Origin: an uncultured virus (IMG/VR IMGVR_UViG_3300005264_001596)
Lineage: Duplodnaviria; Heunggongvirae; Uroviricota; Caudoviricetes
Direction: 5' to 3' (one strand)
Virus record (IMG/VR): IMGVR_UViG_3300005264_001596
Length of the DNA stretch: 64,000 nucleotides
Made by a program: the position numbers and the translations under genes
Shown: in pieces, positions 35,853 to 62,403 of the stretch
How the letters are laid out: each line of letters opens with the position of its first letter
Numbering within the stretch: position 1 is the first letter of the stretch
The notes under the pieces: generated by a model
What the model saw: only the letters and a program-made list of their open reading frames with translations
What the model was told of the DNA's origin: nothing
Database searches by the model: none

Positions 35853-38800
35853 ATGCCAAAAAAGAAGAATAAAAGAGAATATAAAGCAAGTGATATTGTT
35901 GTTATTTATGAAGATCGAGAACGAGTTAGACAGAGTTCCCATGTTTATGGTAGACGTGGATTAGGTGGTATAAAACATTTATTCACAGAATCTTTTGATA
36001 ATGCTATTGATGAGCATATTGTTACTGGTACACCAATATATGTTAGATTTAATGAGATAACTAAAGAAATTACTGTATCAGATAATGGTGGAGGAATACC
36101 TCATGAAAAATTAAGAGAATTAGCAGAGGTAATGAACTCTAGTGGTAAATATAATAATACTACTAAAAATGGTTCTGCTTATGTAACATCAGTTGGTCAA
36201 AATGGTATGGGTATGAAAGTTATAAACTTTTTATCAGACCATATGACATTAAGTTCTAAACGTGATGGTAAAGAGTTAAGTGCTAATTATATTGATGGTA
36301 AATTTGTAAAAAGTACTACAAAAAAATGTCCAAAAAAAGAACATGGTACAACAATAACATTTAGACCATCAGATAAATATTTTGATAATAAAGTTAAGAA
36401 ACTTACAATAAAACATCTGACTGATTTAATAGAAAAAAGATTATACGTAACAGGACCACAATTAAAGGTCTATGTTAATCATGTAAAACCAAATGGAAAA
36501 GAATCTGCAAAAATATATTCAGGTTACTCATTAGAAAAATATGTAACAAAATTATCTAAAAATAAATCTGCAAAAATATTTAATCTACAACTTAAAGGTG
36601 CTTCTGATGATTCTAATTTTCAAAAAGGTGAAGTTGTTTTTCAAATGAATGAAAATGGTACTAAAGAAAATATTGAGGGATATGCAAATACTCTTTATAC
36701 TAAAGATGGTGGAACCCATATAAATTCTGTAAGAAATGCTATAACTGATTTCTTTAGAAAAGAAACTAATAATAGAATGTCCCAACTTGAGAGTAAGCAT
36801 ATTAATATTAAAGCTGATGATGTTAGAAGTCTCATTGTTGCAGTAATATCAGTTAGATTAGTATCTCCTGAGTTTAAAGGACAAACCAAAGATGAATTAG
36901 AATCTAATATAGAAAAAGATCTTACTTCTTTAATAATTAAAGAATTGAAAAAATCTTTAAATGATAAAGAAATAAATAATATATGTAACATGATTAAACT
37001 TAATGCTAGAGCTAGAATTGAATCAACTAAAATTATCAAAAGAGTTAAGAAAGCTGATAGCATTAGTAAATTTTCAAAGAATAATATATCTAATTATATT
37101 CGTATATCTAAAGGTAGTAAATCTAAATTCACTGAGATATTTTTAACTGAAGGATTATCAGCTGGAGCTTCAATGGATAAAGCACGAGATGCTGATAGTC
37201 AAGCAATATATCAAATTCAAGGAAAACCAGTTAACTTTTTAAAGAAAAAGAAAATTCAAATTGTAAATAATAAATTAGTTCAAGAATTAAGTAAAATTTA
37301 TGGTATAGAACCATTCAGTGAAGACTTACCAGTATTTGATAGAATTAATATAGCAACAGATGCTGATATTGATGGTGACCACATGGGTGCTTCTCTTATG
37401 GTATTACATTATATAGTATTTCCAGGAGTTATTAAAAATCATATTCTTTATAAAATAAAATTACCTTTATATAAAATTGATAAGAAAAATCCAATTTATT
37501 TAATTAATGATGATGAACTTTCACATTATATAGGAAAAGAATTTATGAAAAAGAATTTGTTATATTTTAATAAATCAAAATTTAGTAAATCTGCCACAAT
37601 TAAATTTATTAATTCAAATATAAATTATACAAATTTAATAGACAAAGTAGCTAAAAAACATGCATCAGTTCCAGAAGTAATAGAACTAATTGCTTTTTGT
37701 TTGCATAATTATAAAGAAGATATACCTAAATGGAAAAAGGAATTTAAACCTAGATATCCTTATATAAATATTACAAATACTAAAAGTGGTATAGAAGTTG
37801 ATGGTATTGATAGTGCAACAAAAAATTATCAAATTATATTAGTGAATAAGAAATTTAAAAAAGATATAGAGCATATTATAGAAGTTATTATTGATAATTA
37901 TAATAAGATATTCGGTTATAAGATTAATAAAGACGGTGAAGATATATCTTTATATAAAGTAAACAAAAAAATAGCTAATACAATTGGTTCAGGTAATAAG
38001 GTTCGATTTAAAGGGTTATTGTAATAGCTCTTGACTTTTTAATTGCGGGGAACTGCTAACTAGATTAGCGGGATGAATAATCCTCTTTATAGGTCTTAAC
38101 TACTAACTTATCATAGTGATATAGATAAGGGCAAGGAGTAATTTCCAAGGTATAGTAAAAATGTTAAGAATAAAGACAATCCGCAGCCAAGTTACTTATT
38201 ATAATAAGTAAAAGGTTCAACGACTATCCCTTTCGAGGGAGTACAGAACAAGCTAAGGTTCTGGAAATGGAAGACCTATCGTAAGATAGAAGATATAGTC
38301 TAGCCTACATTGAGAATTGTAGAAGTTCATAAGAGAACTGCATTAGTAGTTGCGTACTAATGTGAATATATGCGTGGGTTTGTAAAATTGCCCATGACTT
38401 TTTAATTGCGGGGAACTGCTAACTAGATTAGCGGGAATTATATTCCTCTTTATAAGTCTTAACTACTAAACTATCATAGTAATATAGATAGTGGCAAGGA
38501 GTAACTTCCAAGGTATAGTAAAAAGGTTAAGAATAAAGACAATCCGCAGCCAAGCTTCTTATATAGAAGAAGGTTCAACGACTATCCCTTTCGAGGGAGT
38601 ACAACTCAAGCTAATGGAGTTGGAAATAGAAGACCACTTAATTAAGTGAAGATATAGTCTAGTCTGCATTGAGAAATGTAGAAGTTCATAAGAGAACTGC
38701 ATAAAGATTTGCGTCCTATATGTGAATGAATACGGAGATGGAGTCTGTAGATTTCCATAATACATCAATATTAAGAGAAAATAGAACATCTATCAAAATA

Positions 38801-38926
38801 CGATTAATGGATATTGAAAAAGCTAGAAATAGTATTAATTTACTTCATGGAGATAGTTGTCCATTGAAACAAGAATTTTTCCTTGAAGCATTAAAGACTT
38901 TTGATATAACACAAATAGATACTTAA
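35853..38926 (+). CDS. gyrB: type IIA topoisomerase subunit B, spliced: join(35853..38016,38375..38379,38735..38926), 786 aa
   Basis: ESFDNAIDE, DNGGGIP, GQNGMG, FKGQTK, TEGLSA, TDADIDGDH; splicing restores RFKGLGEM. Confidence 0.92.
38017..38374 (+). mobile_element. group I intron 1 in gyrB (358 nt, no ORF, IA-like)
   Basis: P AATTGCGGGGAA, Q AATCCGCAGC, R GTTCAACGACTA, S AAGATATAGTCT; exon AAGGGT pairs with IGS GCTCTT with a U.G pair at the splice site; ends in G. Confidence 0.92.
38375..38379 (+). other. gyrB: 5-nt micro-exon of gyrB (TGGGT)
   Basis: Needed to give GGG T|TG GGT|GAG ATG = G L G E M; pairs with the intron 2 IGS GCCCA. Confidence 0.88.
38380..38734 (+). mobile_element. group I intron 2 in gyrB (355 nt, no ORF)
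   Basis: Same P/Q/R/S elements; P1 TGGGT:GCCCA; terminal G followed by GAG ATG. Confidence 0.92.
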
Positions 38927-38929
38927 AAT

Positions 38930-38957
38930 ATATGACCTAGAATATTCTAGGTCATAT
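38930..38957 (+). terminator. terminator after the last gyrB exon
   Basis: ATATGACCTAGA/TCTAGGTCATAT. Confidence 0.7.
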
Positions 38958-38987
38958 TTAACTTATAAAATTGAGAGGAGTTTAAAT

Positions 38988-39176
38988 ATGTATTATTATA
39001 ATATTAGTATAAAATGGGTAGTTGAAGATGTTATAGAAAAACATCCATATTTAACAGATTATGAGGCAGCAAGAGTATTGGATTATGTATTAGAAAATCA
39101 TGATGCAAATGTAGGAATAAACTGGAGCGTTATAAATATTGCAGTATTAATATTATATCCAAATAATAAAAAATAG
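38988..39176 (+). CDS. small hypothetical protein
   Basis: GAGGAG RBS; 62 aa. Confidence 0.65.
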   Translation: MYYYNISIKWVVEDVIEKHPYLTDYEAARVLDYVLENHDANVGINWSVINIAVLILYPNNKK

Positions 39177-39191
39177 AGGAGGTTATACATT

Positions 39192-39791
39192 ATGAAATTA
39201 GATGATAAAAGAAGTTTTATTATAAGTAATAAAACTGGTAAAATTATTTCTAAAAAGAAATTAAGAAATACTAAATACCTAAAAAGTCTTAAAAATGATG
39301 ATAGTTATAAAGTATTTGCACATTTATCTAATGGTGTATATAAAACAATAACAATTAAATCATTACTTAAATTAATGAGATTGCGTAGTATAACAATTGA
39401 AAGACATTTTCAAATGGAAGATTATGATGAAGACGGTGAATTTATATGGAATTCTGTAATTTATCAAAAAACAGAATATGATACTATAGAATCATTACTT
39501 AGTTTTTATATTAGTGATACAATAGAAGTAGATTTTTGGAAACAGATTCAAACTTATGATAATATAAATGTAGAATATTTAGATTTTAAGATTAAGTATG
39601 AGAATGGTAAAAAACAAAAAATATATCATATGGAATTTAATGAAGATATTTTTAAATCTGAAAAAGAACCGTTATGTCTTAAATATTTCGGACATTTAAA
39701 ACCATATTATGGAGATTTAGATTTAAAAGCACGAGACGAAATGGATACATCATGGAAAAAAGTAAAAATGATATTTTCTGATGGAAAATAA
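39192..39791 (+). CDS. hypothetical protein
   Basis: GAGGAGG RBS. Confidence 0.65.
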   Translation: MKLDDKRSFIISNKTGKIISKKKLRNTKYLKSLKNDDSYKVFAHLSNGVYKTITIKSLLKLMRLRSITIERHFQMEDYDEDGEFIWNSVIYQKTEYDTIESLLSFYISDTIEVDFWKQIQTYDNINVEYLDFKIKYENGKKQKIYHMEFNEDIFKSEKEPLCLKYFGHLKPYYGDLDLKARDEMDTSWKKVKMIFSDGK

Positions 39792-39799
39792 ATAGAGGA

Positions 39800-40408
39800 G
39801 TGTATAAAAAAATGAATGATAAAAAAATTAAAGATGGTGTTTTAGGCGAATCTGTATTAGATGATACATCAATAATAACAGAATCAACATGTATTTTAAC
39901 TAATACTAAATCAACACAGCCAATGGAAAAAATAGCTGACACTAATTTAGTAAAAATATATGGGCTATATCCTCATCCAGTAACATTTATTCAACCAAAC
40001 ATAAAAGAAATAAAATTATCATCTGGAGTAGATTTAAAACTTTTACCAAATACAATATTCGTTACTGAGGAAATAAATATTCATGATAATAATTTAGAAC
40101 CTATTTTTAGAATAGCTGGTGGTATTCATTCTATGAATGGTGAAATAATATTCAATATCTCTGTTTTAAATTCAAATTATGGTTATATCCTGATAGATCC
40201 TAATTATGATCAAAATGAAATTAATGAATATTTAAAATCTGAATTTAAATATTTAGATATAGAAAATAATATAGCTATGTTTAAAAAGAAAAGAAATGAA
40301 AAAGGTGATGTTATTGATATAGATAAAAATAGTTATATGATTATATCACAACATAAAATTGCTTTATTTGGATATGTATTAAATACACCTAAAATTACAA
40401 TTATATAA
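39800..40408 (+). CDS. hypothetical protein
   Basis: GAGGAG RBS (true start may be ATG 39812); terminator at 40413-40434. Confidence 0.6.
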   Translation: MYKKMNDKKIKDGVLGESVLDDTSIITESTCILTNTKSTQPMEKIADTNLVKIYGLYPHPVTFIQPNIKEIKLSSGVDLKLLPNTIFVTEEINIHDNNLEPIFRIAGGIHSMNGEIIFNISVLNSNYGYILIDPNYDQNEINEYLKSEFKYLDIENNIAMFKKKRNEKGDVIDIDKNSYMIISQHKIALFGYVLNTPKITII

Positions 40409-40464
40409 TAATATAGCGGATATAATTCCGCTATTTTTTTTAACTTAAATAAGGAGCTTATATT

Positions 40465-40992
40465 ATGAAAAAATATAAAATTGGATTTCCAGTATTAATT
40501 AAAAATAAAATAGTTGATGATGCAATCATTGAAGTTTTAGATGATAGTAATATAATTACTTCAATTATTAGTGAAAAAAATAAAAGTATTTATAAAGAAG
40601 GACTTGATACAATTGTTGGAATGAATGCTTATAATTGTTTTATTCCTATTGAACCAACAGATGATATGCCTAATTGTTTAACTATTGGATACATAGAAAT
40701 AACTGATAGTGTGTATGGTTATGATTATAATGTAGCTAAAGTTAAAAATCTTAATAAACCATTAATTAAAATTACAGAGTTATCTGATGGTGATGTTTTT
40801 ATTGATGAAAAACGTTATTTCATTGGAGATTTATCAATAAATAAAATAGGTAATATTTTAGATATTTTTAAAGATATTACAAATGTTTCTGGTAAATCAT
40901 TAATCTCAAATTATGATAATATTAAAATTAAAAATATTGTTAACTCCAATACTAAATATTATAGAAAAATAATATTAAATAATCCTTTATAA
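40465..40992 (+). CDS. hypothetical protein
   Basis: AAGGAG RBS. Confidence 0.6.
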   Translation: MKKYKIGFPVLIKNKIVDDAIIEVLDDSNIITSIISEKNKSIYKEGLDTIVGMNAYNCFIPIEPTDDMPNCLTIGYIEITDSVYGYDYNVAKVKNLNKPLIKITELSDGDVFIDEKRYFIGDLSINKIGNILDIFKDITNVSGKSLISNYDNIKIKNIVNSNTKYYRKIILNNPL

Positions 40993-41075
40993 TTTTATGT
41001 AATGTATTAAACATATAAATGATTGAAGTATATATTATAAAATTAGAAGAATATATAGGAAGGGGATATAATATT

Positions 41076-43502: not shown

Positions 43503-43561
43503 TTAATATAAGTTAAGGATAAAACCTTAACTTATTTTTTTTATAATAATAAGGAGGTAAT

Positions 43562-44485
43562 ATGAAAAATCGAAGAAATAATCATAACAACTTAAATAGA
43601 TATCCTAATCCAGTATCAAATAAAAAATCTATTAATAAGATTGATTTACTTTATATAAATAATATAAAAGATATTTTAAAAAATGGTAGTGATGATTTTG
43701 ATGATAAAGTTAGACCTGTATATAGTGATGGAACACCTGCACATACAAAATTTATAACACAAAATTTTGAAAAATATGACATATCTAAAGGTGAATTCCC
43801 AATAACAAATTTAAGACCTATTGCATGGAAGTCTGCTATTAAAGAAATTTTATGGATTTATCAAGATCAATCTAATGATTTAAATTTACTTAAAGATAAA
43901 TATAATATTAATTGGTGGGACGAATGGGAAGTCGAAAATACTGATACTATTGGATTAAGATATGGTGCAACAGTTAAAAAATATGATTTGATGAATAAAC
44001 TTCTTGAAGATATTAAAAATTCACCATATGGTAGAAGACATATTATGAATTTATGGCAGAATGAGGATTTAGATAATAATGAAGGATTAAATCCTTGTGC
44101 ATTTATGACAATGTGGAGTGTTAGAAAATCAAAAGAAGGCATAAAATATTTAGATATGACATTAACACAGCGTTCTAATGATTATTTAGTTTCTGGACAT
44201 ATAAATAAAATACAATATGTTGCATTGATGATGATGGTTGCCAAACATCTTAATTTAGAAGTTGGTATTTTTGCTCACTATACACATAACCTTCATATAT
44301 ATGATAGACATTTTAAACAAGCAACTGAAATAATGACAAGATTTAAATATAATCTTTGTTTAGACCAACCAAGGCTTATATTATTTACAGATAAAACTAA
44401 TTTTTATGATTTTACAATTGATGATTTTATGATTAGAAAGTATAATCCAATTAAACCTCAATTAAAATTTGATTTGGGAATTTAG
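43562..44485 (+). CDS. thyA: thymidylate synthase
   Basis: KSAIKEILW, WWDEW, YGRRH, catalytic LNPC, QRSND, IN..QY, NLHIYDRH. Confidence 0.93.
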   Translation: MKNRRNNHNNLNRYPNPVSNKKSINKIDLLYINNIKDILKNGSDDFDDKVRPVYSDGTPAHTKFITQNFEKYDISKGEFPITNLRPIAWKSAIKEILWIYQDQSNDLNLLKDKYNINWWDEWEVENTDTIGLRYGATVKKYDLMNKLLEDIKNSPYGRRHIMNLWQNEDLDNNEGLNPCAFMTMWSVRKSKEGIKYLDMTLTQRSNDYLVSGHINKIQYVALMMMVAKHLNLEVGIFAHYTHNLHIYDRHFKQATEIMTRFKYNLCLDQPRLILFTDKTNFYDFTIDDFMIRKYNPIKPQLKFDLGI

Positions 44486-45016
44486 GTGAATACTATGGAG
44501 ATAAATTTAATAGCGGCTGCAGATTTGCAGAATGGTATAGGAAAAGATGGTAAATTATTATATCATATAAAAGAAGATTTACAATATTTCAAAAAACAAA
44601 CACTTAATAATATTGTCATAATGGGAAGAAAAACTTTAGAGTCCCTTCCAAATGGTAGAGCTTTAAATAATCGTATTAATATTGTAATTACAAGAGATAA
44701 AGATTTTAAATGTAGTACTGCTATAGTTGTTAATAGTATTGAAGAAAGTATAAAAGCTATTAATTTTTTTGATGATGTTAATAGTGATTTAAAAGCATTC
44801 GTAATTGGCGGTGCATCTATATATAAACAATTTATGCAATATGCAGATAATATTTATTTAACTAAAATATATGATGTAAAACAAGCAGATTCACACTTTC
44901 CAGAAATGCTTAATACAGATTGGAAGTTATTAGAATATAATAAACAGACAACACATGAAGAATTAGATTATGCTTTTTTAATATATACAAGACAAACAAA
45001 TATCCTGCTTAAATAG
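44486..45016 (+). CDS. folA: dihydrofolate reductase
   Basis: GIGKDGKL, EDL.YFK..T, IMGRKT, L.NR.NIV, FVIGGASIY, ADSHFP. Confidence 0.93.
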   Translation: MNTMEINLIAAADLQNGIGKDGKLLYHIKEDLQYFKKQTLNNIVIMGRKTLESLPNGRALNNRINIVITRDKDFKCSTAIVVNSIEESIKAINFFDDVNSDLKAFVIGGASIYKQFMQYADNIYLTKIYDVKQADSHFPEMLNTDWKLLEYNKQTTHEELDYAFLIYTRQTNILLK

Positions 45017-45024
45017 CAGGATAT
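45000..45024. terminator. bidirectional terminator
   Basis: ATATCCTGCT/AGCAGGATAT. Confidence 0.75.
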
Positions 45025-45030
45025 ATTTTT

Positions 45031-46218: not shown

Positions 46219-46249
46219 ATTTTACATCTCCTTTATATTATTATTTATA

Positions 46250-51213: not shown

Positions 51214-51975
51214 ATGACATTTGAAGAAAAAAAACAAGAATTTATAGAATATTTGATTGGAGTTATTGAAACTCTTGAAGGAGGTAAAAATAAAAAGAAT
51301 GCAACTCATTTGAGAGAAAAATTTGAATCAATGAATGAACAAAAATTTATTAATTATTTTAGAAAATTCTTTAAAGATGAAGATATGAATTTAACCCTTA
51401 ATGTTGAACCAGGTGAAGATAATTTATGTATGAAAGATATAATAAAAGCTGCTAAAAAGGCAGATGTTGAATTATTTGATAATATTGCATTACCATATTT
51501 ATCTAAAGATGCTAATAATCCTATAATAACACAAAATAAAATTATGACTGGATACATTAATGGTCGACGTCTACAACAAAGGGTTAGAAAGAAAAACTCT
51601 ACATCTATATCAATTTCTAAGAGAGATCCTAGATATAATCAGGTAACAGGTGAAGATAAGATTGGTCGTATTACAGATTGGGAAACAAGAGCTTTAGAAG
51701 TGCAAGGTGCTAAAAGTGCATTAAAAGAATTCTTTGGTCCACGTTCAGATGATTCTGTATCAAAAGAACAAATGTATCAAAGTATAATTGAAAAAGGTAC
51801 AGTTAGTTTGAAAGATTTAGATATAAGTAAATTTAATAAACAGTCATTAATTACAGCAAATGATTTTTTTATTGCTGCTATGGTTGGTAATGATTTACTT
51901 ACTAGAGAATATTTATTACCAAGAACTTTAAAATATGGTAAAAAGGATGCAACTGGATTGAAACGTGGTAAGTAA
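51214..51975 (+). CDS. rpoB: RNA polymerase beta subunit, short C-terminal fragment (probably virion RNAP)
   Basis: GYINGRRLQQRVRKK, NQVTG, GRITDWETRAL, ALKEFFGPRSDD...MY..I align with the RpoB C-terminus; AACA motif at 51188. Confidence 0.8.
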   Translation: MTFEEKKQEFIEYLIGVIETLEGGKNKKNATHLREKFESMNEQKFINYFRKFFKDEDMNLTLNVEPGEDNLCMKDIIKAAKKADVELFDNIALPYLSKDANNPIITQNKIMTGYINGRRLQQRVRKKNSTSISISKRDPRYNQVTGEDKIGRITDWETRALEVQGAKSALKEFFGPRSDDSVSKEQMYQSIIEKGTVSLKDLDISKFNKQSLITANDFFIAAMVGNDLLTREYLLPRTLKYGKKDATGLKRGK

Positions 51976-51993
51976 AAGAAGGAGATGTATATA

Positions 51994-52752: not shown

Positions 52753-52755
52753 ATT

Positions 52756-52887: not shown

Positions 52888-52917
52888 CAATAATTAAATA
52901 TAAGGAGGAAATATAAT

Positions 52918-53736: not shown

Positions 53737-53772
53737 TTTTAATAATAGAGGGATAATACCCTCTATTTTTTT

Positions 53773-54492
53773 TTGAAATTTAGATTAACTAGAACTCAAA
53801 GAAAAATTAGATTTGCATTATTGTTAATATGTACTGCATACCTTATAACAATAGGTGTAAAAAATATAACACATGAAAAACATGAAGTGATTAATAATGA
53901 TATCGTATATGCGATTGAAAATATATCAGTTCAAGAATCAGTAGAACCAAAAACATTTATTGCAAATTTAAAAGAAACAAATTTATTAAAAAGACAATAT
54001 GAAATCATGAAACCTTTAATTGAAACAATCAGCGAATATAATAAATTAAATAAGTATATCTCAAAGTATAAAGGTAATGATTTTACTGTTGATGATTATT
54101 TAATGGTTAAAGAAGTATCAAATTATTATGGCGTTCCAATTGAAATATCATTAGCAATCATAGAAGTTGAAAGTAATTTTTATTCAGCTGCTGCTAATCC
54201 AGATTCTTCTGCTGGTGGATATTATCAAGTACTTTCTTCTACTGGTAAATGGTTATATGAAAAAGTATTACCTGAAGAAATACGAACTAAGTATGGTGCT
54301 TGGTCTGATGATATGAGATTTAATAAAGAAATAAGTATTTATCTTGGAAACTCATATTTAGCTTTTAATTATAAAGGTGACTGGAGTAGAAGTATTCGAA
54401 GATATTATGGAAGTATTCATGAAGAAAATAACAATATTTATCTAAATAAAGTAATAAATAAAACTAATAATATTTTAAAAGAAGTATATTAA
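53773..54492 (+). CDS. membrane-anchored lytic transglycosylase (SLT family)
   Basis: N-terminal TM; AIIEVESNF (catalytic Glu), SAGGYYQV, IYLGNSYL. Confidence 0.8.
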   Translation: MKFRLTRTQRKIRFALLLICTAYLITIGVKNITHEKHEVINNDIVYAIENISVQESVEPKTFIANLKETNLLKRQYEIMKPLIETISEYNKLNKYISKYKGNDFTVDDYLMVKEVSNYYGVPIEISLAIIEVESNFYSAAANPDSSAGGYYQVLSSTGKWLYEKVLPEEIRTKYGAWSDDMRFNKEISIYLGNSYLAFNYKGDWSRSIRRYYGSIHEENNNIYLNKVINKTNNILKEVY

Positions 54493-54583
54493 AAAAGAAA
54501 ATAATGCATTTTCTTTTTTTTTATTCACACATAACATTATAATATAATAAAAGTATAAAAAATAAGAAAGGAGAATTTAATAA

Positions 54584-55096
54584 ATGCTTTGTTTAGATTT
54601 TAATAGAGAATGTAGAAAATGTAATATTTGTGAACACTTTAGATCAACTGATGCAAATCAAAGCAATAAAAAAGAAATAGATTTATATATTAATGAGATA
54701 AGTTTAAGTTATATGGATTTTGATACTATAAGATTATTAAAAAAGATATTAGATTATTCAGTAACACTAAAAATTAATAAAATCCCTGTGGATATTATTA
54801 AAGAATATGCAATAAAAATGAATTGGAATCATGTTTCAATGTTCCAATATATTGATGAAAATATAATTACTGATTATGGACATTTAATAGAAGAAAATAG
54901 AATTGATTTAAATTTTAAAGAATTTAATATTATTAAATTTATGGAAAGACTAGAATTTGATGATTTTAAAAAGTTTTTAATTGAAAATAAATTATCAAAT
55001 AAATGTATATGTTTAAATCAGTTAATTAAATTAACACCAAATATATATTTAGAAAAATATTATGATTTAATAATAGATATTATTAAAGATTTATAA
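54584..55096 (+). CDS. hypothetical protein, Cys-rich N-terminus
   Basis: C....RECRKCNIC. Confidence 0.6.
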   Translation: MLCLDFNRECRKCNICEHFRSTDANQSNKKEIDLYINEISLSYMDFDTIRLLKKILDYSVTLKINKIPVDIIKEYAIKMNWNHVSMFQYIDENIITDYGHLIEENRIDLNFKEFNIIKFMERLEFDDFKKFLIENKLSNKCICLNQLIKLTPNIYLEKYYDLIIDIIKDL

Positions 55097-55263
55097 TGGC
55101 TTACATAAGCCATTATTTTTCTGTCATATAAAGTTTTTGGTTATATATTATATAAATGAAAATAAATATTACTATCAACATTTTTTAGTAATACAACTTA
55201 ATTTTAAGGAGGACATAAATATGTCAGTAAATGATACAATAGAAAACATGGTGGATTTATCGA

Positions 55264-56349
55264 ATGAAAGATTTAATGACTAATACATTAGTATTAGGAT
55301 TAGGTCAAGCAGGCGGTAATGTAACAAGTCTTGCATATGAAAGAAATATTTTAACAGCAGCAATTAATACATCACAAAAAGATCTATATGAAACAAATGC
55401 TCATATCAAAATTCATATGAGTGATATTGATGGTTCAGGTAAAGATAGAGATTTTTCGTTCGAGATGTTTAAAGAAAATTATCAATCTCTTTTACAACCA
55501 ATATTTGATTTAATTGATTCCAATGATATTAATAATATTGCAATTGTTGCATCTGGAACAGGTGGAACAGGTTCAGGAATCTTTGCACCAGTATTAGCAT
55601 TTTTAAATAATAAATATGGTGATAAACTTATTTATGGCGTAGCCATTTTAGGTTCAATTAAAGAAGATTACTTAGCTCAGTCAAATGCAAAAGAATTTTT
55701 AAAAGAAGTTGACGAAAAACTCAGTGTTCCTTATATGATTTTCGATAATGACTCTGTAGAAGGTAATGTTCATGAGGTTTACAAAACAATTAATAATGAT
55801 ATCATCAATAAAATATGTGTTATTGATGGTTACATGTATGATGCATCTGATATAGCTAATATCGATAATAGTGACAAAACTAGATTGTATAAATCTGGAA
55901 GATTTTTAATATCTACAATTGATAATATAAGTACATCTTTAACTAATGATATTGATGCTGAAGATAATATCATTTCATCTATAAGAAAAAGTCATCAAAC
56001 TGATATTGGTGAATTTGTAGACACATATGGAATTTATATTAATTCAAATGATTTAAATAAATTTGATTATAATTTTGTAAAATTACAAAATGAATTTGGT
56101 CAATCAGTAACGATGTTTAAACACATTCAATTGTATAATGGTAAATCTCCAGAAATTGCTGTTATTATGACAGGACTAGAATCTCCAGTTGATAGATTTA
56201 ATCTTATTGATAGAAGAATGTCTGAATATGAATCAAAAGAACGAAGAGCATTACCAAATTCAAATAAAATGAGTATTCCATTTGGTGAAAGAGTTGCAGT
56301 TGAAAAAATTAATGATGATGATGATTTGCTTGGATTATTTACAAGATAA
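55264..56349 (+). CDS. tubulin/FtsZ-family GTPase (TubZ/PhuZ-like)
   Basis: GLGQAGGN, AINTS..D, GSGKD, SGTGGTGSG signature, FDN, IDNSD. Confidence 0.9.
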   Translation: MKDLMTNTLVLGLGQAGGNVTSLAYERNILTAAINTSQKDLYETNAHIKIHMSDIDGSGKDRDFSFEMFKENYQSLLQPIFDLIDSNDINNIAIVASGTGGTGSGIFAPVLAFLNNKYGDKLIYGVAILGSIKEDYLAQSNAKEFLKEVDEKLSVPYMIFDNDSVEGNVHEVYKTINNDIINKICVIDGYMYDASDIANIDNSDKTRLYKSGRFLISTIDNISTSLTNDIDAEDNIISSIRKSHQTDIGEFVDTYGIYINSNDLNKFDYNFVKLQNEFGQSVTMFKHIQLYNGKSPEIAVIMTGLESPVDRFNLIDRRMSEYESKERRALPNSNKMSIPFGERVAVEKINDDDDLLGLFTR

Positions 56350-56366
56350 AATAGGAGGTATAAATT

Positions 56367-57338
56367 ATGAATGGTGGATTTATATTAAAATTTAAAAAGA
56401 ATGATGATAATTATAAGGTAGATTTTAATAATTCTAAATCAAAAGATTTAAGAGAAACATTTAAATCTCCTAAAAAAGCTTCTAAACTATCAGAAGTTCG
56501 AGTAAAAGAGTTAGTTGTAAAATCTTTCTCTGCATTATTACAAGATATAGAAAGAGGATCAGGATATGATTATTTTGATACTCTTTTTAATAATATTGCA
56601 TTTGCTAAAATATTTATTGATATTATTGATAAGTACAAGAATAATAAAAGAATAGAGCGAATGATGTCAAGGATAATAGATTTATTATCTAAATATTATA
56701 ATAAAGAAGATGAAGATACAGAATTAGAGAAAGTACATTATATAAATAATAGATATAAGCATTTCTTAGAAAACGAAACTTGGAATAGAAACCAAAATAT
56801 GGCTTTTCTAATAAAAGATAATGATATAAGATTTCAGTTAATTATTAAATCATATAATGTAAGAAACGCAGTTTATTTATATACTAGAATAGCAAATGAT
56901 GTTAAGAAAAAACCTAAAGATGCTTGGCAAATATTAATTGATATGATGGAGGATTTTGATGAAGGTAAAATAATTGGTGAAATTTTATCTACAAGAAAAA
57001 GATTAACTCCAAAGTTAACAGAATATGTTTATCAAATGGTTGATGAAGCTGGACAAGATGTTTTATATGATGCTTTAGTTTATTTTGCTAAAAGAGAAAA
57101 GAATACATTAGCTATGGATATAAATAAGACAAGACACAAGACCATGTTATTAACATATCTTGAAAATAATAATATGAGAATTAAAAAGATAAAATCATAT
57201 ATGAAAGAAATAATAAGAGACGATATTACATTAGTAGATACATTCGATCATATTCTTAAAAATGAAGAGTTGTTTAAAGGTGAAAGAATATATAGATTCT
57301 CTAATATTGAAAATAAAAATATGATTAACTTACAATAA
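56367..57338 (+). CDS. hypothetical protein
   Basis: AGGAGG RBS; same operon as the tubulin. Confidence 0.65.
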   Translation: MNGGFILKFKKNDDNYKVDFNNSKSKDLRETFKSPKKASKLSEVRVKELVVKSFSALLQDIERGSGYDYFDTLFNNIAFAKIFIDIIDKYKNNKRIERMMSRIIDLLSKYYNKEDEDTELEKVHYINNRYKHFLENETWNRNQNMAFLIKDNDIRFQLIIKSYNVRNAVYLYTRIANDVKKKPKDAWQILIDMMEDFDEGKIIGEILSTRKRLTPKLTEYVYQMVDEAGQDVLYDALVYFAKREKNTLAMDINKTRHKTMLLTYLENNNMRIKKIKSYMKEIIRDDITLVDTFDHILKNEELFKGERIYRFSNIENKNMINLQ

Positions 57339-57349
57339 AAAAAGAGGAG

Positions 57350-58183
57350 ATGAGTACTATGATAGAAAATTTTATAGATTTAGATTTAACAATTCCAACG
57401 ACTAAACCGAATATATTTAAAATACATCAAACAGAAAAAGGTAAAACTTTTGGTATAATTGATAATGAAATGTTATTCGGTATACCAATCGATAATAGTG
57501 TTAGAAACTCCAGTATACTTAATATGAAAGGTAAAGTTAAAAGTATTGCTAATGGTGATAAAACTCGTAATATTGTTACAATAGTTGATGATAATGATGA
57601 TGAAGATGATACATTTGATATTTATTCATTTTATAATTATTGTGATCTAGGTATTATAACTGAAGCACATATTATTTCTGGATTTAGCATTAAAGGATTT
57701 TCTGATATTGATAGAAAAAGAATTGGTATGTATTTAGTTCCTGATTATTCATCAGGAAATAAGGAGTTATTATTAAAGATTATTATTAAAAAATATAGTG
57801 GTGAATTAACTACCATAATTTATGATTTAATAAATGACCAAATTAAGAATGATACTATTAGCATTAAAATGAAAAATAAAGATTTACTTAATTCGTATCA
57901 AGATATGCTTAATACTTTAGATTTTGCTGATAAACTCACTGATGAAACAATTCATTATTATTTTGATAAGAATAAATATGATAGAATTATATTTAATTTA
58001 AATGTCAGATTATCAAAAGAAGAATATGATGTTTTATATACAAAAACAGTGGAATTTAATAATTTATATAATCCTTATATATTTAAAAGAATAGGATTAA
58101 AAAATATAATTAATAAATCAGGTGAAACAACTGAATTTTATGATGCATTTATGAAATCATTAAATTCATATAAAAATAAATAA
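57350..58183 (+). CDS. hypothetical protein
   Basis: GAGGAG RBS. Confidence 0.65.
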   Translation: MSTMIENFIDLDLTIPTTKPNIFKIHQTEKGKTFGIIDNEMLFGIPIDNSVRNSSILNMKGKVKSIANGDKTRNIVTIVDDNDDEDDTFDIYSFYNYCDLGIITEAHIISGFSIKGFSDIDRKRIGMYLVPDYSSGNKELLLKIIIKKYSGELTTIIYDLINDQIKNDTISIKMKNKDLLNSYQDMLNTLDFADKLTDETIHYYFDKNKYDRIIFNLNVRLSKEEYDVLYTKTVEFNNLYNPYIFKRIGLKNIINKSGETTEFYDAFMKSLNSYKNK

Positions 58184-58226
58184 GGGTCAAACCTTATTTT
58201 TTGTTAAGACATGGGAGGTCTACAAT

Positions 58227-59477
58227 ATGGCAGCTAAAAAAGGTCCAAACTTTTTAGATGAATTAGAAAAAACAGTTAAAAAATATCAATATCTTTCAGA
58301 AGATAAAGATATTATGTTAACAACTGGATTATTAACTTTAGATTATGGAAATGGTAAAAGAATTAAAGTATATGATGATGATAATAATATTATTGATGAA
58401 TATGATGAACTTGGAGTTGCTATGGGTAGCGTAAATGGATTTACAGGAGAATCTTCTACAGGTAAATCTGCACTTGCTTATATATGTGCTGGTTCAATTA
58501 TGGCAACATATGACCAATCTGATGTACATATAATTGATGTTGAAGATTCATTTGATAAAGAACGTTTTAAAAATCTTACAAACTTATCAGCATCTACATT
58601 AAAGAAACGTATGAATATTCTTAAAACTGATGTCGTTGAAGAAATGGCAGATTATATTGTTAAATTAGTTAAAGAAAAACTTACAAGAGTTACTGAATTA
58701 ACTATAGATTCAGGTAAACGCAATATGTTCAATGAGCCTATACAATTTCTTACACCAACTGTTATAATTATTGACTCTTGGAGTAAACTTACAACTAGAA
58801 GTCAATTAGTAAAAGCTTTTGATGAAAGTTCTAAACAGGAATATGAAAATAATATGCAAGGTGCAACAAGAGCTAAAACCCTTAATGCTATTATTAAATT
58901 AATGTCTAAATTAGCAACTATTGCCAATGTTACATTTCTTGTAGTTCATCATACAACAGATGTTATTCAAGCGGGTTTTATATCTAAGGCTGCTCAGAAT
59001 ATGCATATGGGTGGAGGTAAACATATAACAGGAGGAAAACAATCCATATATTTATCAAATAATTTAATAGAAACTGGTAATATGGGTAAACTAATTGCAA
59101 ATGGTAGTAGAAGTCCAAATTATGGAGTTGATGGTTTTTTAGTAGGTATGAAAGTTGCTAAGAGTAGAACTAATTCTACAGGTAAAATTCTTGAAGCAGT
59201 ATTTGATTATAGACTAGGTGGATTTAATAGATTGCTTACATTATTCCACTATGCTGCTAAGAATGAGATCATTCAAGGTGGAGGACAAAAATATTATTTT
59301 GAAAGTTATCCTGAGGTTACATTCTCTAAAAAGAATTTTGAAAAAGTGGCAAGAAAAAATCCTAAGTTAGTAAGTGTTTTATTCGATGAATGTAAAAATA
59401 GTCTTTCATCACTTCTATCCAATACATCAAATTTTGACATAGATGATGAAATTGATATTATGGATGCATTATATTAA
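58227..59477 (+). CDS. recA: RecA/UvsX-like recombinase
   Basis: TTGLLTLD, Walker A GESSTGKS, IDVE, Walker B IIIDSW, GGK, KSR; terminator at 59484-59511. Confidence 0.85.
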   Translation: MAAKKGPNFLDELEKTVKKYQYLSEDKDIMLTTGLLTLDYGNGKRIKVYDDDNNIIDEYDELGVAMGSVNGFTGESSTGKSALAYICAGSIMATYDQSDVHIIDVEDSFDKERFKNLTNLSASTLKKRMNILKTDVVEEMADYIVKLVKEKLTRVTELTIDSGKRNMFNEPIQFLTPTVIIIDSWSKLTTRSQLVKAFDESSKQEYENNMQGATRAKTLNAIIKLMSKLATIANVTFLVVHHTTDVIQAGFISKAAQNMHMGGGKHITGGKQSIYLSNNLIETGNMGKLIANGSRSPNYGVDGFLVGMKVAKSRTNSTGKILEAVFDYRLGGFNRLLTLFHYAAKNEIIQGGGQKYYFESYPEVTFSKKNFEKVARKNPKLVSVLFDECKNSLSSLLSNTSNFDIDDEIDIMDALY

Positions 59478-59535
59478 ATTAATTAGATGTAGTCATTTTT
59501 GACTACATCTATTTATTTCAAAAGGAGTCTAAAAT

Positions 59536-59880
59536 ATGAAAGTAAATGTCACAACGACAAATGAAGAATTTATAAATAAATGTATTACTATAATTAAAAA
59601 GAATATTAATAGCACTGTAACAATGAATAGTTTTAAAGAATTTATATTTAATGCTTCATTATTCGATGATAAATTTTATATAGTTGTATTTAAAGATAAT
59701 ACAGTTACTATAATGGATACCAATTTAAATGGATATGGTTATATTACATTTACACATCCAAAAATTTATGAAGATATAAAAGATCGTATGTTTCCTGAAG
59801 ATACTTTTATTGATTTACAAAAAGATAATGTTGCCAAAACATTTAATCATTATTCTAGTTTAATTGATAATCTTCTTTAA
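59536..59880 (+). CDS. hypothetical protein
   Basis: AAGGAG RBS. Confidence 0.6.
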   Translation: MKVNVTTTNEEFINKCITIIKKNINSTVTMNSFKEFIFNASLFDDKFYIVVFKDNTVTIMDTNLNGYGYITFTHPKIYEDIKDRMFPEDTFIDLQKDNVAKTFNHYSSLIDNLL

Positions 59881-59926
59881 GCATATATTATAAGTATGAA
59901 TAATAAAATAGAAGGAGAGTATAAAA

Positions 59927-62403
59927 ATGAGCAATAATTTGAAAAAAGAGTTTAAAAAGATTAATAAGAAGTATGATGATTTAGATAAAGCCCATGCATC
60001 TGGTCTAATGACAATGGCAGCACATATTTCAGCAAATAGACTTATGATGTTTTTCTCTAATTTAACCCAATATAATCAAATTGACAATCCAGAACCACCA
60101 TTATTAACAACTGGATATGAAAATCCATTAGCACTATATAGTAAATTATCATATAACCAAATTGAAAATAAGGTTATAGTTGTAGGGAAAATAATAAAAA
60201 ATAAATACAATTATACACTTATTACTTATGATAAGAAAAAAGATTTGTATGATATTGTTGAAAGACATGAAGCAGAAGATCTTGGTGAAAGTTATGGTTT
60301 TAAAATAAATAATGAAACTATAGACTCTTATAATATCGGAAATACAATAAAGAAAGATACAGTATTATGGAAATCAAGTGGTTATGATGATTATATGAAT
60401 TATGGCTATGGAAAGAATTTAAACACTATGTATTCTATAAATTTAAATAATCTTGAAGATGCTATAACTACAACTGATGATATTGGTTTAGATACTAATA
60501 AAGTTAAAACTATTGAAGTTATTATTTCTGATAATACTGGTCCATTAAATTTATATGGAGATAATAAACAATTTAAAGTATTTCCTGAAGTTGGAGAAAC
60601 TGTTAATGATTGTATATTATGTGCAACTAGACTTAGAAATGAAAAATCAGATTTATTTAATTTCACAAATGATAAATTAAGAAAGTTAATTTCAGGTGAT
60701 ACAACATATGTTACTCATGGTAATTATAAAGTTATTGATATTGATATTCTTACAAATAATCCTATTGATGATTTACCTAATACAAAATCATATCAACAAA
60801 TAAAACGAGTGTATTCAGAAATTATAGAATATCGAAAAAAGATTCATAAAGAATTAGATATAATTATAAACTCTGGCTCAGATTATACAAGTAGATTATC
60901 ATTTCTTTATAAAAGAATAAATGATTTATTAGATGATAGAATTAAAATAGAAGTTAATAATAAAATATTCTCAAAATTTATTATTAATTTTACCGTGATG
61001 CATAAAGATACACCTAAATTAGGAAGTAAGATAGTGGGTAGATCTGGAAATAAAGGAATCATTGGTACCATTAGAAATAAAAAAGAAGCATCATATTATA
61101 TTGATGAAAAAGGTGAAGAACAAAAAGTTCAAATAATTTTAGATGGATTAGGTATATTAGCAAGACTTGCATTAATGCAAAGTTATGAAGTTGAAGTTAA
61201 TTGGATGGTTGGTCAAGCATTAGATCGAGTATGGGATGATAGAAAAAAATTTATGAAAACTTGTTTTGATTTATTAAATATACTTAATCCTTCAGAAGCT
61301 GAAGCATTAGAAAATGATTATATGAATTTAGATAAATCAGGTAAAAAATATATTTATAAATCTATTCAGGAACATGGATTACCTATATTTGTTAAACCGT
61401 CTGAAGGCATTGGAGATAAACGATATGAAGAATTAATTGATTATGTGAAACCTAAGAAATATAAAATTTATAAATATGATACAAATGGAAAGAAAATTTA
61501 TTATAAAAGACCAATGATAGTTGGAAAACAGTATGTAATGATTTTAAAACATACTCCATTATCTAAATTTAGTGTCAGAAGTAGAGGTGCAGTGAATCCA
61601 CGTTCAGGAACACCTACTAGAAGTAATGCTTTTCTTAAAAATAGAGCTTTATATTCTGATACCTCATCTCGACTTGGTGAATTTTTGCCAACGACTTTTT
61701 AATTGCGGGGAACTGCTAACTAGATTAGCGGGATGAATAATCCTCTCTACTTTAGGATACAGATACTAAACTATCATAGTAATATAGATAGTGGCGAAGG
61801 GTAACTCCTTAGGTATAGTAAAAATTCTGTATATAGAGACAATCCGCATCCAAGCTTCTCAAAGAGAAGAAGGTTCAACGACTATCCCTTTCGGGGGAGT
61901 ACAGAACAAGCTAAGGTTCTGGAAAAGGAAGACCTATCATAAGATAGAAGATATAGTCTATTCTGCATCGAGAGATGTAGCAGTTCATAAGAGAACGATA
62001 TAAAGAGTTGCGTCTTTATATGAATATAAAGGAAATGGAACTTGGAATTTTACTAATAAATAATCAACCAAAAGCTGTTAAATTCTTAATGAGTATTTAT
62101 GCAAATTCAACAGAGAGCCGAAGACGTTTTGCTCATTGGTTATATGATAATCCTTTTTCAAGTGGTACAAATTATTCTGAAAAAGGTTTTAGAAATAAAC
62201 CAGTTGATATTATGAATAATCAAATGAATTCAATAGGATTAAATTTAAATATGGTTTATGAAAGTCCTAAATCATATGCTAAACGAATTAACAAAAATGG
62301 TGATAATATGGAAGATGCTATTAATAATGATTTAAATAAAGTTAAAAATATTAATGAACTATCATTTTTATTAAAAAGAGAAATTAATAAATCAGGCAAA
62401 TAG
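59927..62403 (+). CDS. rpoB: RNA polymerase beta subunit, C-terminal half (probably non-virion RNAP), spliced: join(59927..61678,62032..62403), 707 aa
   Basis: SANRLMMF..N..Q, TGYE, YGKN, NLEDA, GSKIVGRSGNKGII, GKQYVMILKH; splicing restores RLGEME. Confidence 0.9.
61679..62031 (+). mobile_element. group I intron 3 in the RNAP beta gene (353 nt, no functional ORF)
   Basis: Same core as the gyrB introns; P1 TTGGT:GCCAA with a U.G pair; terminal G before GAA ATG GAA. Confidence 0.92.

What the first reader, a model, noticed from the sequence alone, without database searches (positions are those of the whole stretch)
38380..62031. One ORF-less intron family retargeted by its guide sequence; the same LG^EME site is hit in two unrelated genes
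Seen: the three introns (358, 355 and 353 nt) share an identical stretch of about 40 nt starting GACTTTTTAATTGCGGGGAACTGC and very similar cores. Each has a different IGS matched to its own exon. Intron 2 sits at TGGGT^GAGATGGAG in gyrB and intron 3 at TTGGT^GAAATGGAA in rpoB, both encoding LG^EME. The paralogous beta fragment at 51214 has ITDWE at the equivalent position and has no intron. None encodes a homing endonuclease. Inference: recent intragenomic spread to ectopic look-alike sites, by reverse splicing or a trans-acting endonuclease, rather than classic allele-to-allele homing.
Basis: partly seen in the sequence, partly recalled or inferred. Interest (0 to 1): 0.82.

Follow-up and report, generated by a model that had tools for sequence, protein, structure and literature searches.

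The report
Sibling self-splicing introns in jumbo phage
Three closely related self-splicing introns without genes of their own interrupt two unrelated essential genes of an uncultured giant phage, two of them at the same short DNA word, which is natural evidence that such introns can jump to look-alike sites.

Summary
The window carries three ORF-less group I introns: I1 38017-38374, I2 38380-38734 and I3 61679-62031. They are 80-85% identical and share an identical 41-nt core. I1 and I2 lie in a GyrB-like gene, 5 nt apart. I3 lies in the C-terminal half of an RNA polymerase beta gene homologous to AR9 gp089. Each guide sequence pairs with its own 5' exon. After in-silico splicing, GGTGARATGGA (LG^EME) occurs exactly twice in the window, and both copies are occupied.

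All three fold alike, with 26 of 99 pairs showing compensatory changes. They are each other's nearest relatives among 44 family loci found. The closest protein relatives found, and phage AR9, read through both sites without interruption.

"Recent" spread is not supported. The copies differ by 15-20% and are mosaics of one another.

The mechanism stays open. Guide pairing alone does not predict occupancy: 1 of 25 and 1 of 92 perfect targets are filled. That favours DNA-level recognition or microhomology for I2/I3. I1 shares only GGGT^ with its neighbour's site.

AR9-like jumbo phages are already known to be full of such introns, and sibling introns in different genes also occur in AR9. This is therefore a new member of a known kind, with an unusually clean look-alike-site case and a 5-nt micro-exon.

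The parts
35853..38016 (+). GyrB-like type IIA topoisomerase subunit B, exon 1; ends ...AAAGGGT
   Evidence: Pfam DNA_gyraseB at 6.5e-28, plus HATPase_c and Toprim. The frame was read.
38017..38374 (+). Intron I1: ORF-less group I intron, 358 nt
   Evidence: RF00028 at 55 bits. nhmmer against the family profile gives 391 bits. It follows U38016 and ends with G38374.
38027..38032 (+). I1 internal guide sequence GCTCTT; pairs with exon AAGGGT (two G.U pairs)
   Evidence: Read. It ranked second in the P1 heuristic.
38375..38379 (+). 5-nt micro-exon TGGGT between I1 and I2; completes Leu and Gly of KGLGEM
   Evidence: This is the only splice assignment that restores FKGLGEME. The motif is conserved in P0036, AR9 and MarsHill.
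38380..38734 (+). Intron I2: ORF-less group I intron, 355 nt
   Evidence: RF00028 at 67 bits. nhmmer gives 388 bits.
38390..38394 (+). I2 internal guide sequence GCCCA; pairs with the micro-exon TGGGT
   Evidence: Read. It was the best P1 candidate.
38735..38926 (+). GyrB-like exon 3; begins GAGATGGAG
   Evidence: Weak Pfam match to DNA_gyraseB_C, E = 0.0054. The spliced product ends ...FKGLGEMESVDF....
59927..61678 (+). RNA polymerase beta, C-terminal-half subunit, exon 1; homologue of AR9 gp089 (non-virion polymerase); ends ...CTTGGT
   Evidence: Pfam RNA_pol_Rpb2_6 at 9e-08. tblastn to AR9/PBS1 gives 34% identity.
61679..62031 (+). Intron I3: ORF-less group I intron, 353 nt
   Evidence: RF00028 at 59.3 bits on a local scan. 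nhmmer gives 383 bits.
61687..61691 (+). I3 internal guide sequence GCCAA; pairs with exon TTGGT. The four T before it can pair with GAAA of the 3' exon (P10).
   Evidence: Read. It was the best P1 candidate.
62032..62403 (+). RNA polymerase beta exon 2; begins GAAATGGAA (EMELGILL...)
   Evidence: Translation. The relatives P0005 and P0006 continue ...GEQEITILLY and ...GEMETTILLY.
51214..51975 (+). Paralogous beta fragment with GRITDWE at the equivalent motif; no intron

Best explanation
What it is. The three elements are working self-splicing group I ribozymes of the IA type. They have extra hairpins between P7 and P3' and a branched P5 extension, and they carry no endonuclease gene. They belong to an intron family that is common in AR9-like jumbo phages. 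The family is marked by the 3' tail P9.0 - GTTCATAAGAGAAC hairpin - hairpin with a GCG-containing loop.

How it works. Each intron recognises its 5' splice site by pairing a 5-6 nt guide with the last bases of its exon. Splicing restores GyrB ...FKG|LG|EME... and beta ...SRLG|EME....

How it got there. The copies arose by non-allelic (ectopic) copying within this phage lineage. They were not acquired by three independent homing events at old sites. After each move the guide sequence was matched to the new exon. The copies then kept exchanging modules by recombination.

Most likely route. For the I2/I3 pair I favour a DNA-level event. A nick or break near an 11-bp look-alike word (GGTGARATGGA) is repaired from the other locus through microhomology. 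The break may be promoted by an HNH endonuclease encoded by a sibling intron or a free-standing gene outside the window. I put this at about 0.45 among the routes. RNA-guided reverse splicing is the alternative, at about 0.3, and fits I1 better.

Shown: the anatomy, the family relationship, the guide/exon covariation, the site statistics, the mosaicism and the absence of the introns in relatives.

Inferred: splicing activity, the direction and order of the moves, and the route.
For: - Group I identity.
- Structure under selection: 97.3% of cells are paired. 26 of 99 pairs changed on both sides, against 9.5 +/- 2.5 in shuffles (0 of 500 shuffles reached the observed value) and 0-2 when the partners are slid.
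- One family: pairwise identity is 85.0%, 81.4% and 80.3%. The 3' domain is 80-85% identical among the three and 61-72% to L001, L002 and L004. The three group together in a tree of 33 distinct 3' domains, as do the three copies of contig L019. The three of L031 fall in one clade that also holds three rows from other contigs.
- Guide covariation: read and recovered by the heuristic.
- Look-alike sites: 2 of 2 GGTGARATGGA words and 2 of 2 GEME peptides in the spliced window are occupied. Of the 647 other GGT sites on the + strand, only the beta site matches at least 7 of 9 bases of the gyrB 3' flank.
- Derived state: the beta relatives P0005 (61% identity) and P0006 (56%, with GEME) and the GyrB relative P0036 (48%, with LGEM) are single uninterrupted ORFs. 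AR9 gp089 and gp024 are uninterrupted.
- DNA-level exchange exists: the P5 hairpin is 26/26 identical between I2 and I3. The P5 3' extension is 46/48 between I1 and I2. P7.2-P8 is 44/46 between I1 and I3, against 29/47 to I2. A runs test gives 37 runs against 58.8 +/- 4.3, and 0 of 20000 shuffles were as low.
- Endonuclease-bearing siblings exist in the family: NUMOD4 + HNH_3 in L002. An ORF with an HNH-like motif (read by eye, not scanned) lies in the third intron of L031, beside two ORF-less siblings. AR9 g190 is annotated as an HNH endonuclease.
- Guide pairing alone does not explain occupancy.
Against: - No endonuclease or reverse transcriptase was found in about 65 window ORFs. The rest of the genome could not be examined.
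- Grouping by genome could also come from concerted evolution of introns of separate origin, because the mosaicism shows that gene conversion occurs.
- Support for the window clade is modest: ultrafast bootstrap 90, SH-aLRT 27.
- The beta GEME motif is a recurrent intron target. MarsHill has an unrelated compact intron at AGAAT^CGGTGAAATGG. Part of the coincidence may therefore reflect a general preference for this motif.
- I1's site shares only GGGT^ with I2's. It lies 5 nt from it, where a DNA recognition site would be split by the neighbouring intron.
- Microhomology of 3 nt on one side and 5-8 nt on the other is very short for break repair.
- Splicing was not tested.
Confidence: 0.7

Rival explanations
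1. RNA-guided retargeting. A spliced intron RNA reverse-splices into another phage transcript at a site that pairs with its guide (P1, helped by P10). The product is reverse-transcribed and recombined into the genome. The guide then drifts to a perfect match.
For: - The only feature common to all three sites is NGGU^, exactly the part read by the guide.
- I1 lies 5 nt from I2 at a second GGGU^. This is hard to reach with a DNA enzyme whose site is split by the neighbouring intron.
- The introns are ORF-less, and no endonuclease is in the window.
- With I3's guide and its U-run, the gyrB site can form 4 of 5 P1 pairs and 4 of 4 P10 pairs (read).
- Siblings in L019 and L031 sit at dissimilar sites, each with a matching guide (boundaries are heuristic).
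- Related Staphylococcus jumbo phages carry a retron-like reverse transcriptase (passages of preprint 10.1101/2020.12.14.422802).
Against: - No reverse transcriptase was found in the window.
- 24 of 25 TGGGT, 91 of 92 TTGGT and 6 of 7 AAGGGT words on the + strand are empty. The one cross-hit site has a P1 mismatch but matches at +5 to +8, where no pairing is expected.
- The full pathway has no direct experimental support (Hausner et al. 2014, PMC3984707, passages read).
Confidence: 0.3
2. Independent acquisitions plus homogenisation. Each intron entered its site by ordinary allelic homing from other phages that already carried an intron there. The likeness of the three comes from later gene conversion between copies in one genome. 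The LG^EME match is a coincidence of two conserved motifs that attract introns.
For: - The mosaic pattern shows exchange between copies.
- Introns in these phages sit at conserved motifs of essential genes (NADFDGD in L019).
- The beta GEME motif is hit independently in MarsHill.
- gyrB and polymerase genes are reported as common intron hosts in this phage group.
- Depth in run X1 suggests more family copies in the source sample.
Against: - 0 of 44 family loci lie in gyrB or at the beta GEME site.
- The closest relatives are uninterrupted at both sites.
- The same phase and an 11-nt identity across the junction, with 2 of 2 words occupied, are unlikely by chance: 1 of the 647 other GGT sites matches as well.
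Confidence: 0.15
3. Local duplication. I1 and I2 arose by tandem duplication of one intron in gyrB, not by a separate insertion.
For: They are adjacent, and they are the most similar pair at 85%.
Against: - Duplicating TGGGT plus the intron would leave three GGGT words and a 5-nt frameshift. Only two GGGT words are present, and the frame is intact.
- The first 16 nt differ (9 of 16 identical), and the guides differ.
Confidence: 0.05

Closest known systems
Group I introns of AR9/PBS1-like jumbo phages (Takahashivirus; MarsHill-like Staphylococcus phages)
   Same: - Same phage group by gene content: beta is 34% identical to AR9 gp089, and a UvsX-like gene lies upstream as in Internexus.
- Same ribozyme family signature in AR9 and Internexus introns.
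- Many introns per genome: RF00028 gives 18 matches in AR9 and 21 in Internexus.
- Multi-intron genes: AR9 terminase is a join of 5 pieces and the virion beta subunit a join of 6.
- gyrB and polymerase subunits are reported as intron hosts, with variable positions (preprint 10.1101/2020.12.14.422802, passages).
- AR9 also has siblings in different genes: terL intron 4 and virion-beta intron 2 are 81% identical, and both follow CCT^AA by my reading of the junctions.
   Different: - AR9 has no intron at either site.
- MarsHill's gyrB intron lies about 700 nt upstream of KGLGE. Its beta intron near GEME lies 4 nt upstream and is a compact, unrelated ribozyme.
- A 5-nt exon and an 11-nt shared target in two unrelated genes were not seen in those records. 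I could not read the AR9 genome paper.
Staphylococcus phage Twort orf142 introns
   Same: One gene holds three group I introns. Two are highly similar IA2 introns that flank a short exon, and exon skipping occurs (Ueda et al. 2023, PMC10136302, passage read, citing Landthaler and Shub 1999, which I did not read).
   Different: The Twort middle exon is 23 nt; here it is 5 nt. Here a third sibling lies in an unrelated gene at a look-alike site. Splicing is untested here.
Ectopic spread of nuclear rDNA group I introns by reverse splicing
   Same: Related introns sit at different sites, each with matching guide pairing. This is the best circumstantial case for reverse splicing (Hausner et al. 2014, PMC3984707, passages; Bhattacharya et al. 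2005, PMC1299323, abstract in the listing).
   Different: Those hosts are rRNA genes of eukaryotes. Here the hosts are protein-coding genes of a phage, and the site likeness extends beyond the guide's reach.
Collaborative homing, and illegitimate break repair in T-even and cyanophages
   Same: An ORF-less intron is mobilised by an endonuclease encoded elsewhere. Ectopic integration is thought to need relaxed endonuclease specificity and illegitimate recombination (Hausner et al. 2014, passages; its reference 88, Parker et al., was seen there only as a truncated reference entry and was not read).
   Different: No endonuclease has been identified here, and the events would be between unrelated genes rather than alleles.

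Membership tests
Group I intron (Rfam RF00028) | Covariance-model score at or above the gathering score of 50 bits | tested here: met
   I1 scores 55 and I2 67. I3 scores 59.3 on a local scan. The whole-window scans missed I3.
Group I intron (Rfam RF00028) | U at the last exon position forms a wobble pair with a G of an internal guide sequence (P1), and a G ends the intron | tested here: met
   T38016/G38027, T38379/G38390 and T61678/G61687. The terminal G residues are 38374, 38734 and 62031.
Group I intron (Rfam RF00028) | Removing the intron restores a conserved open reading frame | tested here: met
   The spliced genes read FKGLGEME and SRLGEMELGILL. These match the motifs in P0036, P0005/P0006, AR9 and MarsHill.
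Group I intron (Rfam RF00028) | Conserved secondary structure maintained by compensatory changes | tested here: met
   26 of 99 pairs changed on both sides, and 0 of 500 shuffles reached this. The structure tested is the RNAalifold consensus, not a hand-drawn canonical fold.
Group I intron (Rfam RF00028) | Self-splicing with guanosine in vitro or in vivo | not testable with these tools
   No RNA run holds the stretch.
Subgroup IA (phage-type) group I introns | Extra hairpins (P7.1/P7.2) between P7 and the 3' strand of P3 | tested here: met
   The Rfam alignment places an insertion of about 40 nt there. It forms two hairpins, and the second shows 3 compensatory pairs (helices 13 and 14). The subgroup definition is recalled, not taken from a call.
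Mobile group I intron with its own homing endonuclease | An endonuclease ORF (HNH, GIY-YIG, LAGLIDADG or similar) inside the intron | tested here: not met
   The introns are 353-358 nt. The overlapping ORFs of 52, 70 and 76 aa have no Pfam match better than E = 0.044.
Collaborative homing (ORF-less intron plus free-standing endonuclease) | A free-standing endonuclease gene in the genome that cuts the intron insertion site | tested here: inconclusive
   No HNH, GIY-YIG or LAGLIDADG match in about 65 window ORFs. The ESM Atlas gave nothing for two ORFs next to gyrB. The rest of the genome is not held.
Reverse-splicing retrotransposition of a group I intron | Target sites share only the bases that pair with the guide, and a reverse transcriptase is available | tested here: inconclusive
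   All three sites share NGGT^. I2 and I3 also share +1 to +8. Perfect guide targets are mostly empty. No RVT family match in the window.

The most novel reading that the evidence does not exclude
The jumbo-phage intron family moves by RNA guidance. ORF-less group I introns reverse-splice into other phage transcripts at sites chosen by a mutable 5-6 nt guide (plus P10) and are copied back into DNA. The window would then record three such retargeting events, one of them 5 nt from the parent site. That would be the first natural system showing group I intron retrotransposition in protein-coding genes.
Probability: 0.2. Interest if true: 0.85.

Novelty: new member of a known kind. Interest (0 to 1): 0.5.

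Why it matters
How group I introns reach new, non-allelic sites is an acknowledged open question. Hausner et al. 2014 state that the reverse-splicing pathway has no direct experimental support and name mobility to ectopic sites as future work.

This locus offers a compact natural test set. It has three sibling ribozymes of about 355 nt, three known targets, two of them an 11-nt look-alike in unrelated genes, and a 5-nt exon between two siblings. All of these can be synthesised and tested for splicing, exon skipping, reverse splicing on cognate and swapped targets, and cleavage by sibling-encoded HNH enzymes.

It also shows that gene callers truncate GyrB and beta at such sites, and that a whole-window Rfam scan can miss a copy that scores above the gathering threshold.

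Tried and rejected
- Whole genome: none is held.
- Exact intron words of 41, 22 and 20 nt: no hit in viral contigs. The 20-mer gave no hit in metagenome contigs or genome contigs. The degenerate 3' signature gave no hit in genome contigs.
- The search for related loci with GyrB and beta exon 1 in viral contigs: none.
- Megablast of 20 kb of the window against phages: none.
- tblastn of the short downstream exons (123 and 63 aa) against phages: none. Continuity in relatives was therefore read from AR9 loci and from full-length proteins instead.
- blastn of I1+I2 against phages: only core pieces at 71-77% identity in the 40 records listed, and no record covers 80% of the query.
- RNA evidence: no RNA holder is listed for the stretch, so splicing could not be observed.
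- Read laying: no contig joins across I1 or I2, so no intron-less allele was seen. Contigs drop rare variants, so this shows nothing either way.
- ESM Atlas on the ORFs at 39192-39788 and 39800-40405, as possible free-standing endonucleases: no usable hit.
- The ORFs of the Internexus and L004 introns have no Pfam match, so I do not name them.
- The AR9 genome paper is not held. The Bastillevirinae intron paper has no passage on reverse splicing or transposition.
- Tandem duplication as the origin of I1/I2 is rejected on the junction sequences.
- One search printed nothing and one search printed only sequence lengths, because my motif patterns did not match those loci. One search was a coordinate slip, corrected.

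Full report
**Observation**

Shuffled sequence gave none. Reading the flanks gives three introns that each follow a U and end in G:
- I1, 38017-38374 (358 nt)
- I2, 38380-38734 (355 nt)
- I3, 61679-62031 (353 nt)

Rfam RF00028 scores I1 at 55 bits and I2 at 67 bits. I3 scores 59.3 bits when scanned locally. Both whole-window scans lost I3 to the filters. A profile built from the three finds no fourth copy in the window.

The three share a 41-nt identical block. Overall identity is 85.0% (I1-I2), 81.4% (I1-I3) and 80.3% (I2-I3). The stated start, 38380, is the start of I2, so I1 lies just outside the given range.

**Host genes**

The ORF at 35853 is a GyrB-like type IIA topoisomerase subunit (Pfam DNA_gyraseB at 6.5e-28, plus HATPase_c and Toprim). 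A GyrA-like gene follows.

Only one splice assignment restores the conserved FKGLGEM motif:
- Exon 1 ends ...AAAGGGT.
- A 5-nt exon, TGGGT (38375-38379), lies between I1 and I2.
- Exon 3 starts GAGATGGAG.

The ORF at 59927 is the C-terminal half of an RNA polymerase beta subunit. It matches Rpb2 domain 6 and is 34% identical to AR9 gp089, the non-virion polymerase subunit. Splicing gives ...SRLG|EMELGILL.

The paralogous beta fragment at 51214 reads GRITDWE and is uninterrupted.

The window belongs to an uncultured relative of AR9/PBS1-like jumbo phages. It has no megablast match in the phage collection. A UvsX-like gene lies upstream of beta, as in phage Internexus.

**Guides**

Read, and recovered by a pairing heuristic:

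| Intron | Guide | Pairs with |
|---|---|---|
| I1 | GCTCTT | AAGGGU |
| I2 | GCCCA | UGGGU |
| I3 | GCCAA | UUGGU |

The I2/I3 difference (C versus A) compensates for the exon difference (G versus U) at position -4. I3 can also form a 4-bp P10 (UUUU with GAAA). I2 has only 2 such pairs.

**Are they functional?**

On the RNAalifold consensus structure, 97.3% of cells are paired. 26 of 99 pairs changed on both sides while keeping the pair. Column shuffles gave 9.5 +/- 2.5, and 0 of 500 reached 26. Slid partners gave 0-2. Whole helices differ between copies yet still pair, so the 15-20% divergence is not decay.

One deviation: I3 has T for G at the first pair of P6 (CATCC for CAGCC).

The ORFs that overlap the introns have no credible family match.

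**Is the site match more than chance?**

I removed the three introns in silico and counted words:
- GGTGARATGGA occurs twice on the + strand and never on the - strand. Both copies are the occupied sites.
- The peptide GEME occurs twice in six frames. Both are the same two places.
- Of the 647 other GGT sites on the + strand, only the beta site matches at least 7 of 9 bases of the gyrB 3' flank.
- 14 other [GT]GGTGA[AG] words are empty.
- Perfect guide targets are mostly empty: 1 of 25 TGGGT, 1 of 92 TTGGT and 1 of 7 AAGGGT are occupied.

The association is therefore with the 11-nt word, not with guide pairing alone.

No exact intron word occurs in the three public collections. A degenerate pattern over the 3' tail found the wider family:
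- 40 loci in viral contigs
- one in metagenome contigs
- none in genome contigs

The Internexus beta intron and AR9 introns also carry the signature. Some members carry an HNH gene: L002 in nrdA has NUMOD4 + HNH_3, and AR9 g190 is annotated as an HNH homing endonuclease.

A local tblastn of the two spliced host proteins against all 44 loci hit only Internexus beta. That intron lies near residue 417, a different site.

In the 3' domain the window trio are 80-85% identical to each other and 61-72% to L001, L002 and L004. Over the full length they are at most 68% identical to ten AR9 introns.

In a tree of 33 distinct 3' domains the trio group together (ultrafast bootstrap 90, SH-aLRT 27). The three copies of contig L019 also group together (92/83). 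The three of L031 lie in one clade that also holds three rows from other contigs (95/92).

The nearest protein relatives are uninterrupted at both sites:
- Beta: P0005 (61% identity, RIGEQE) and P0006 (56%, RIGEMET)
- GyrB: P0036 (48%, FKGLGEMN)

AR9 gp089 (RIGNME) and gp024 (FKGLGEA) are also uninterrupted.

So I found no same-site intron of this family in distant phages.

**Results that cut the other way**

- The beta GEME motif is a recurrent target. MarsHill's homologous gene has a compact intron at AGAAT^CGGTGAAATGG, 4 nt upstream of the I3 position. The family profile does not detect it. MarsHill's gyrB intron lies about 700 nt upstream of KGLGE.
- I1's site (AAAGGGT^TGGGTGAG) shares only GGGT^ with I2's.
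- Siblings in L019 and L031 appear to sit at dissimilar sites (boundaries are heuristic).
- The copies are mosaics. The P5 hairpin is identical in I2 and I3 (26/26). The P5 3' extension is nearly identical in I1 and I2 (46/48). P7.2-P8 is nearly identical in I1 and I3 (44/46, against 29/47 to I2). A runs test gives 37 runs against 58.8 +/- 4.3, with 0 of 20000 shuffles as low. Part of this clustering comes from paired helix changes, but three different closest pairs cannot fit one tree.

Recombination between copies therefore happens. "Recent" spread is not supported, and grouping by genome could partly reflect concerted evolution.

**More copies?**

In run X1, which holds 90% of the sampled words and is probably the source sample, summed contig depth over the introns is 127-288, against 34.5 on the single-copy flank. 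At several variable positions 5 contigs carry the alternative base, and 4 contigs diverge after 38697.

Three copies at a depth of 34.5 would give about 100. This hints at further family members in the sample. Summed contig depth is not a copy number, and other organisms' contigs are included.

**Context in the literature and in annotated records**

AR9-like phages are dense with group I introns. RF00028 gives 18 matches in AR9, 21 in Internexus, and 10, 14 and 11 in three viral contigs. In AR9 the terminase gene is annotated as a join of 5 pieces and the virion beta subunit as a join of 6.

Passages of Korn et al. (preprint 10.1101/2020.12.14.422802) report introns in polymerase subunits, terminase and gyrase B of MarsHill-like phages. 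[quoted passage not shown]

AR9 itself has siblings in different genes. terL intron 4 and virion-beta intron 2 are 81% identical, and both follow CCT^AA by my reading of the junctions.

Twort orf142 has two highly similar introns around a 23-nt exon, with exon skipping (PMC10136302, passage).

Hausner et al. 2014 (PMC3984707, passages) state that reverse splicing as a mobility route has no direct experimental support. They propose relaxed endonuclease specificity with illegitimate recombination as the alternative.

I could not read the AR9 genome paper or the Twort paper. I therefore cannot say whether look-alike targeting was discussed there.

**Mechanism**

Shown:
- three structurally conserved sibling ribozymes
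- guide/exon covariation
- occupancy of the only two 11-nt look-alike words
- absence of the introns in the nearest relatives
- inter-copy recombination

Inferred: ectopic copying within the lineage.

For I2/I3 I favour a DNA-level event, that is, a break or nick near the shared word repaired through microhomology. The likeness reaches +8, and perfect guide targets are ignored. Against this, no endonuclease is in the window, and the microhomologies are short.

For I1 an RNA-guided event at the neighbouring GGGU^ is simpler.

Tandem duplication is excluded by the junctions: it would leave a third GGGT and a frameshift.

**Verdict**

The kind of element and its abundance in this phage group are known. 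The clean two-gene look-alike site and the 5-nt exon are the new points.

Interest 0.5.

Noticed in passing
window 38375-38379: A 5-nt exon (TGGGT) lies between two sibling group I introns. The whole exon is I2's P1 target. By my reading of the junction, joining I1's 5' splice site to I2's 3' splice site (exon skipping, as in Twort) would give AAA GGG TGA, a stop that removes the last 65 residues of GyrB.
   Followed up: partly
window 61679-62031: Two whole-window Rfam scans missed I3, although it scores 59.3 bits when scanned locally. Filter loss can hide a copy that scores above the gathering threshold. I3 also has T for G at the first P6 pair (CATCC for CAGCC).
   Followed up: yes
window 38015-38721, run X1: Summed contig depth over the introns is 127-288, against 34.5 on the flank. 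Up to 5 contigs carry alternative bases, and 4 contigs diverge after 38697. There may be more family members in the source sample.
   Followed up: partly
L050 (MarsHill, MW248466.1) about 2174-2365: A compact group I intron in the homologous non-virion beta gene sits at AGAAT^CGGTGAAATGG. That is 4 nt upstream of the window's I3 position in the same R-I/L-G-E-M-E motif. The window family profile does not detect it.
   Followed up: partly
L047 and L048 (AR9, KU878088.1): AR9 terminase intron 4 and virion-beta intron 2 are 81% identical. Both appear to follow CCT^AA, so they look like sibling introns in unrelated genes of a cultured phage. Most AR9 introns examined carry the same GTTCATAAGAGAAC hairpin.
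   Followed up: partly
L019, reverse strand as oriented, about 1900-3190 (253-kb viral contig): Three ORF-less siblings lie within about 1.3 kb of one gene. The third splits the NADFDGD motif (LNAD-F|DGDT), so the host is probably an RNA polymerase beta' subunit.
   Followed up: partly
L031, as oriented, about 2280-4005 (247-kb viral contig): Two ORF-less siblings and a third lie in one gene, separated by exons of roughly 40 and 75 nt. The third shares the 5' half of the second and carries an ORF with an HNH-like motif in P6; the motif was read by eye and not scanned.
   Followed up: partly
window 55264-56346: A tubulin/FtsZ-family protein (Pfam Tubulin at 2.1e-12, Tubulin_2 at 1.8e-08). It is possibly PhuZ-like, as in nucleus-forming jumbo phages.
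   Followed up: no
window 43562-45016 and 24554-26263: Thymidylate synthase and dihydrofolate reductase lie side by side, and a polyphosphate kinase lies further upstream. Passages of Korn et al. [quoted passage not shown]
   Followed up: no
protein P0020 (611 aa, 31% identical to beta exon 1): It ends ...RFGEFESLEIGGLCTVKCA. The gene call may be cut a few codons after the same motif, possibly by another intron.
   Followed up: no
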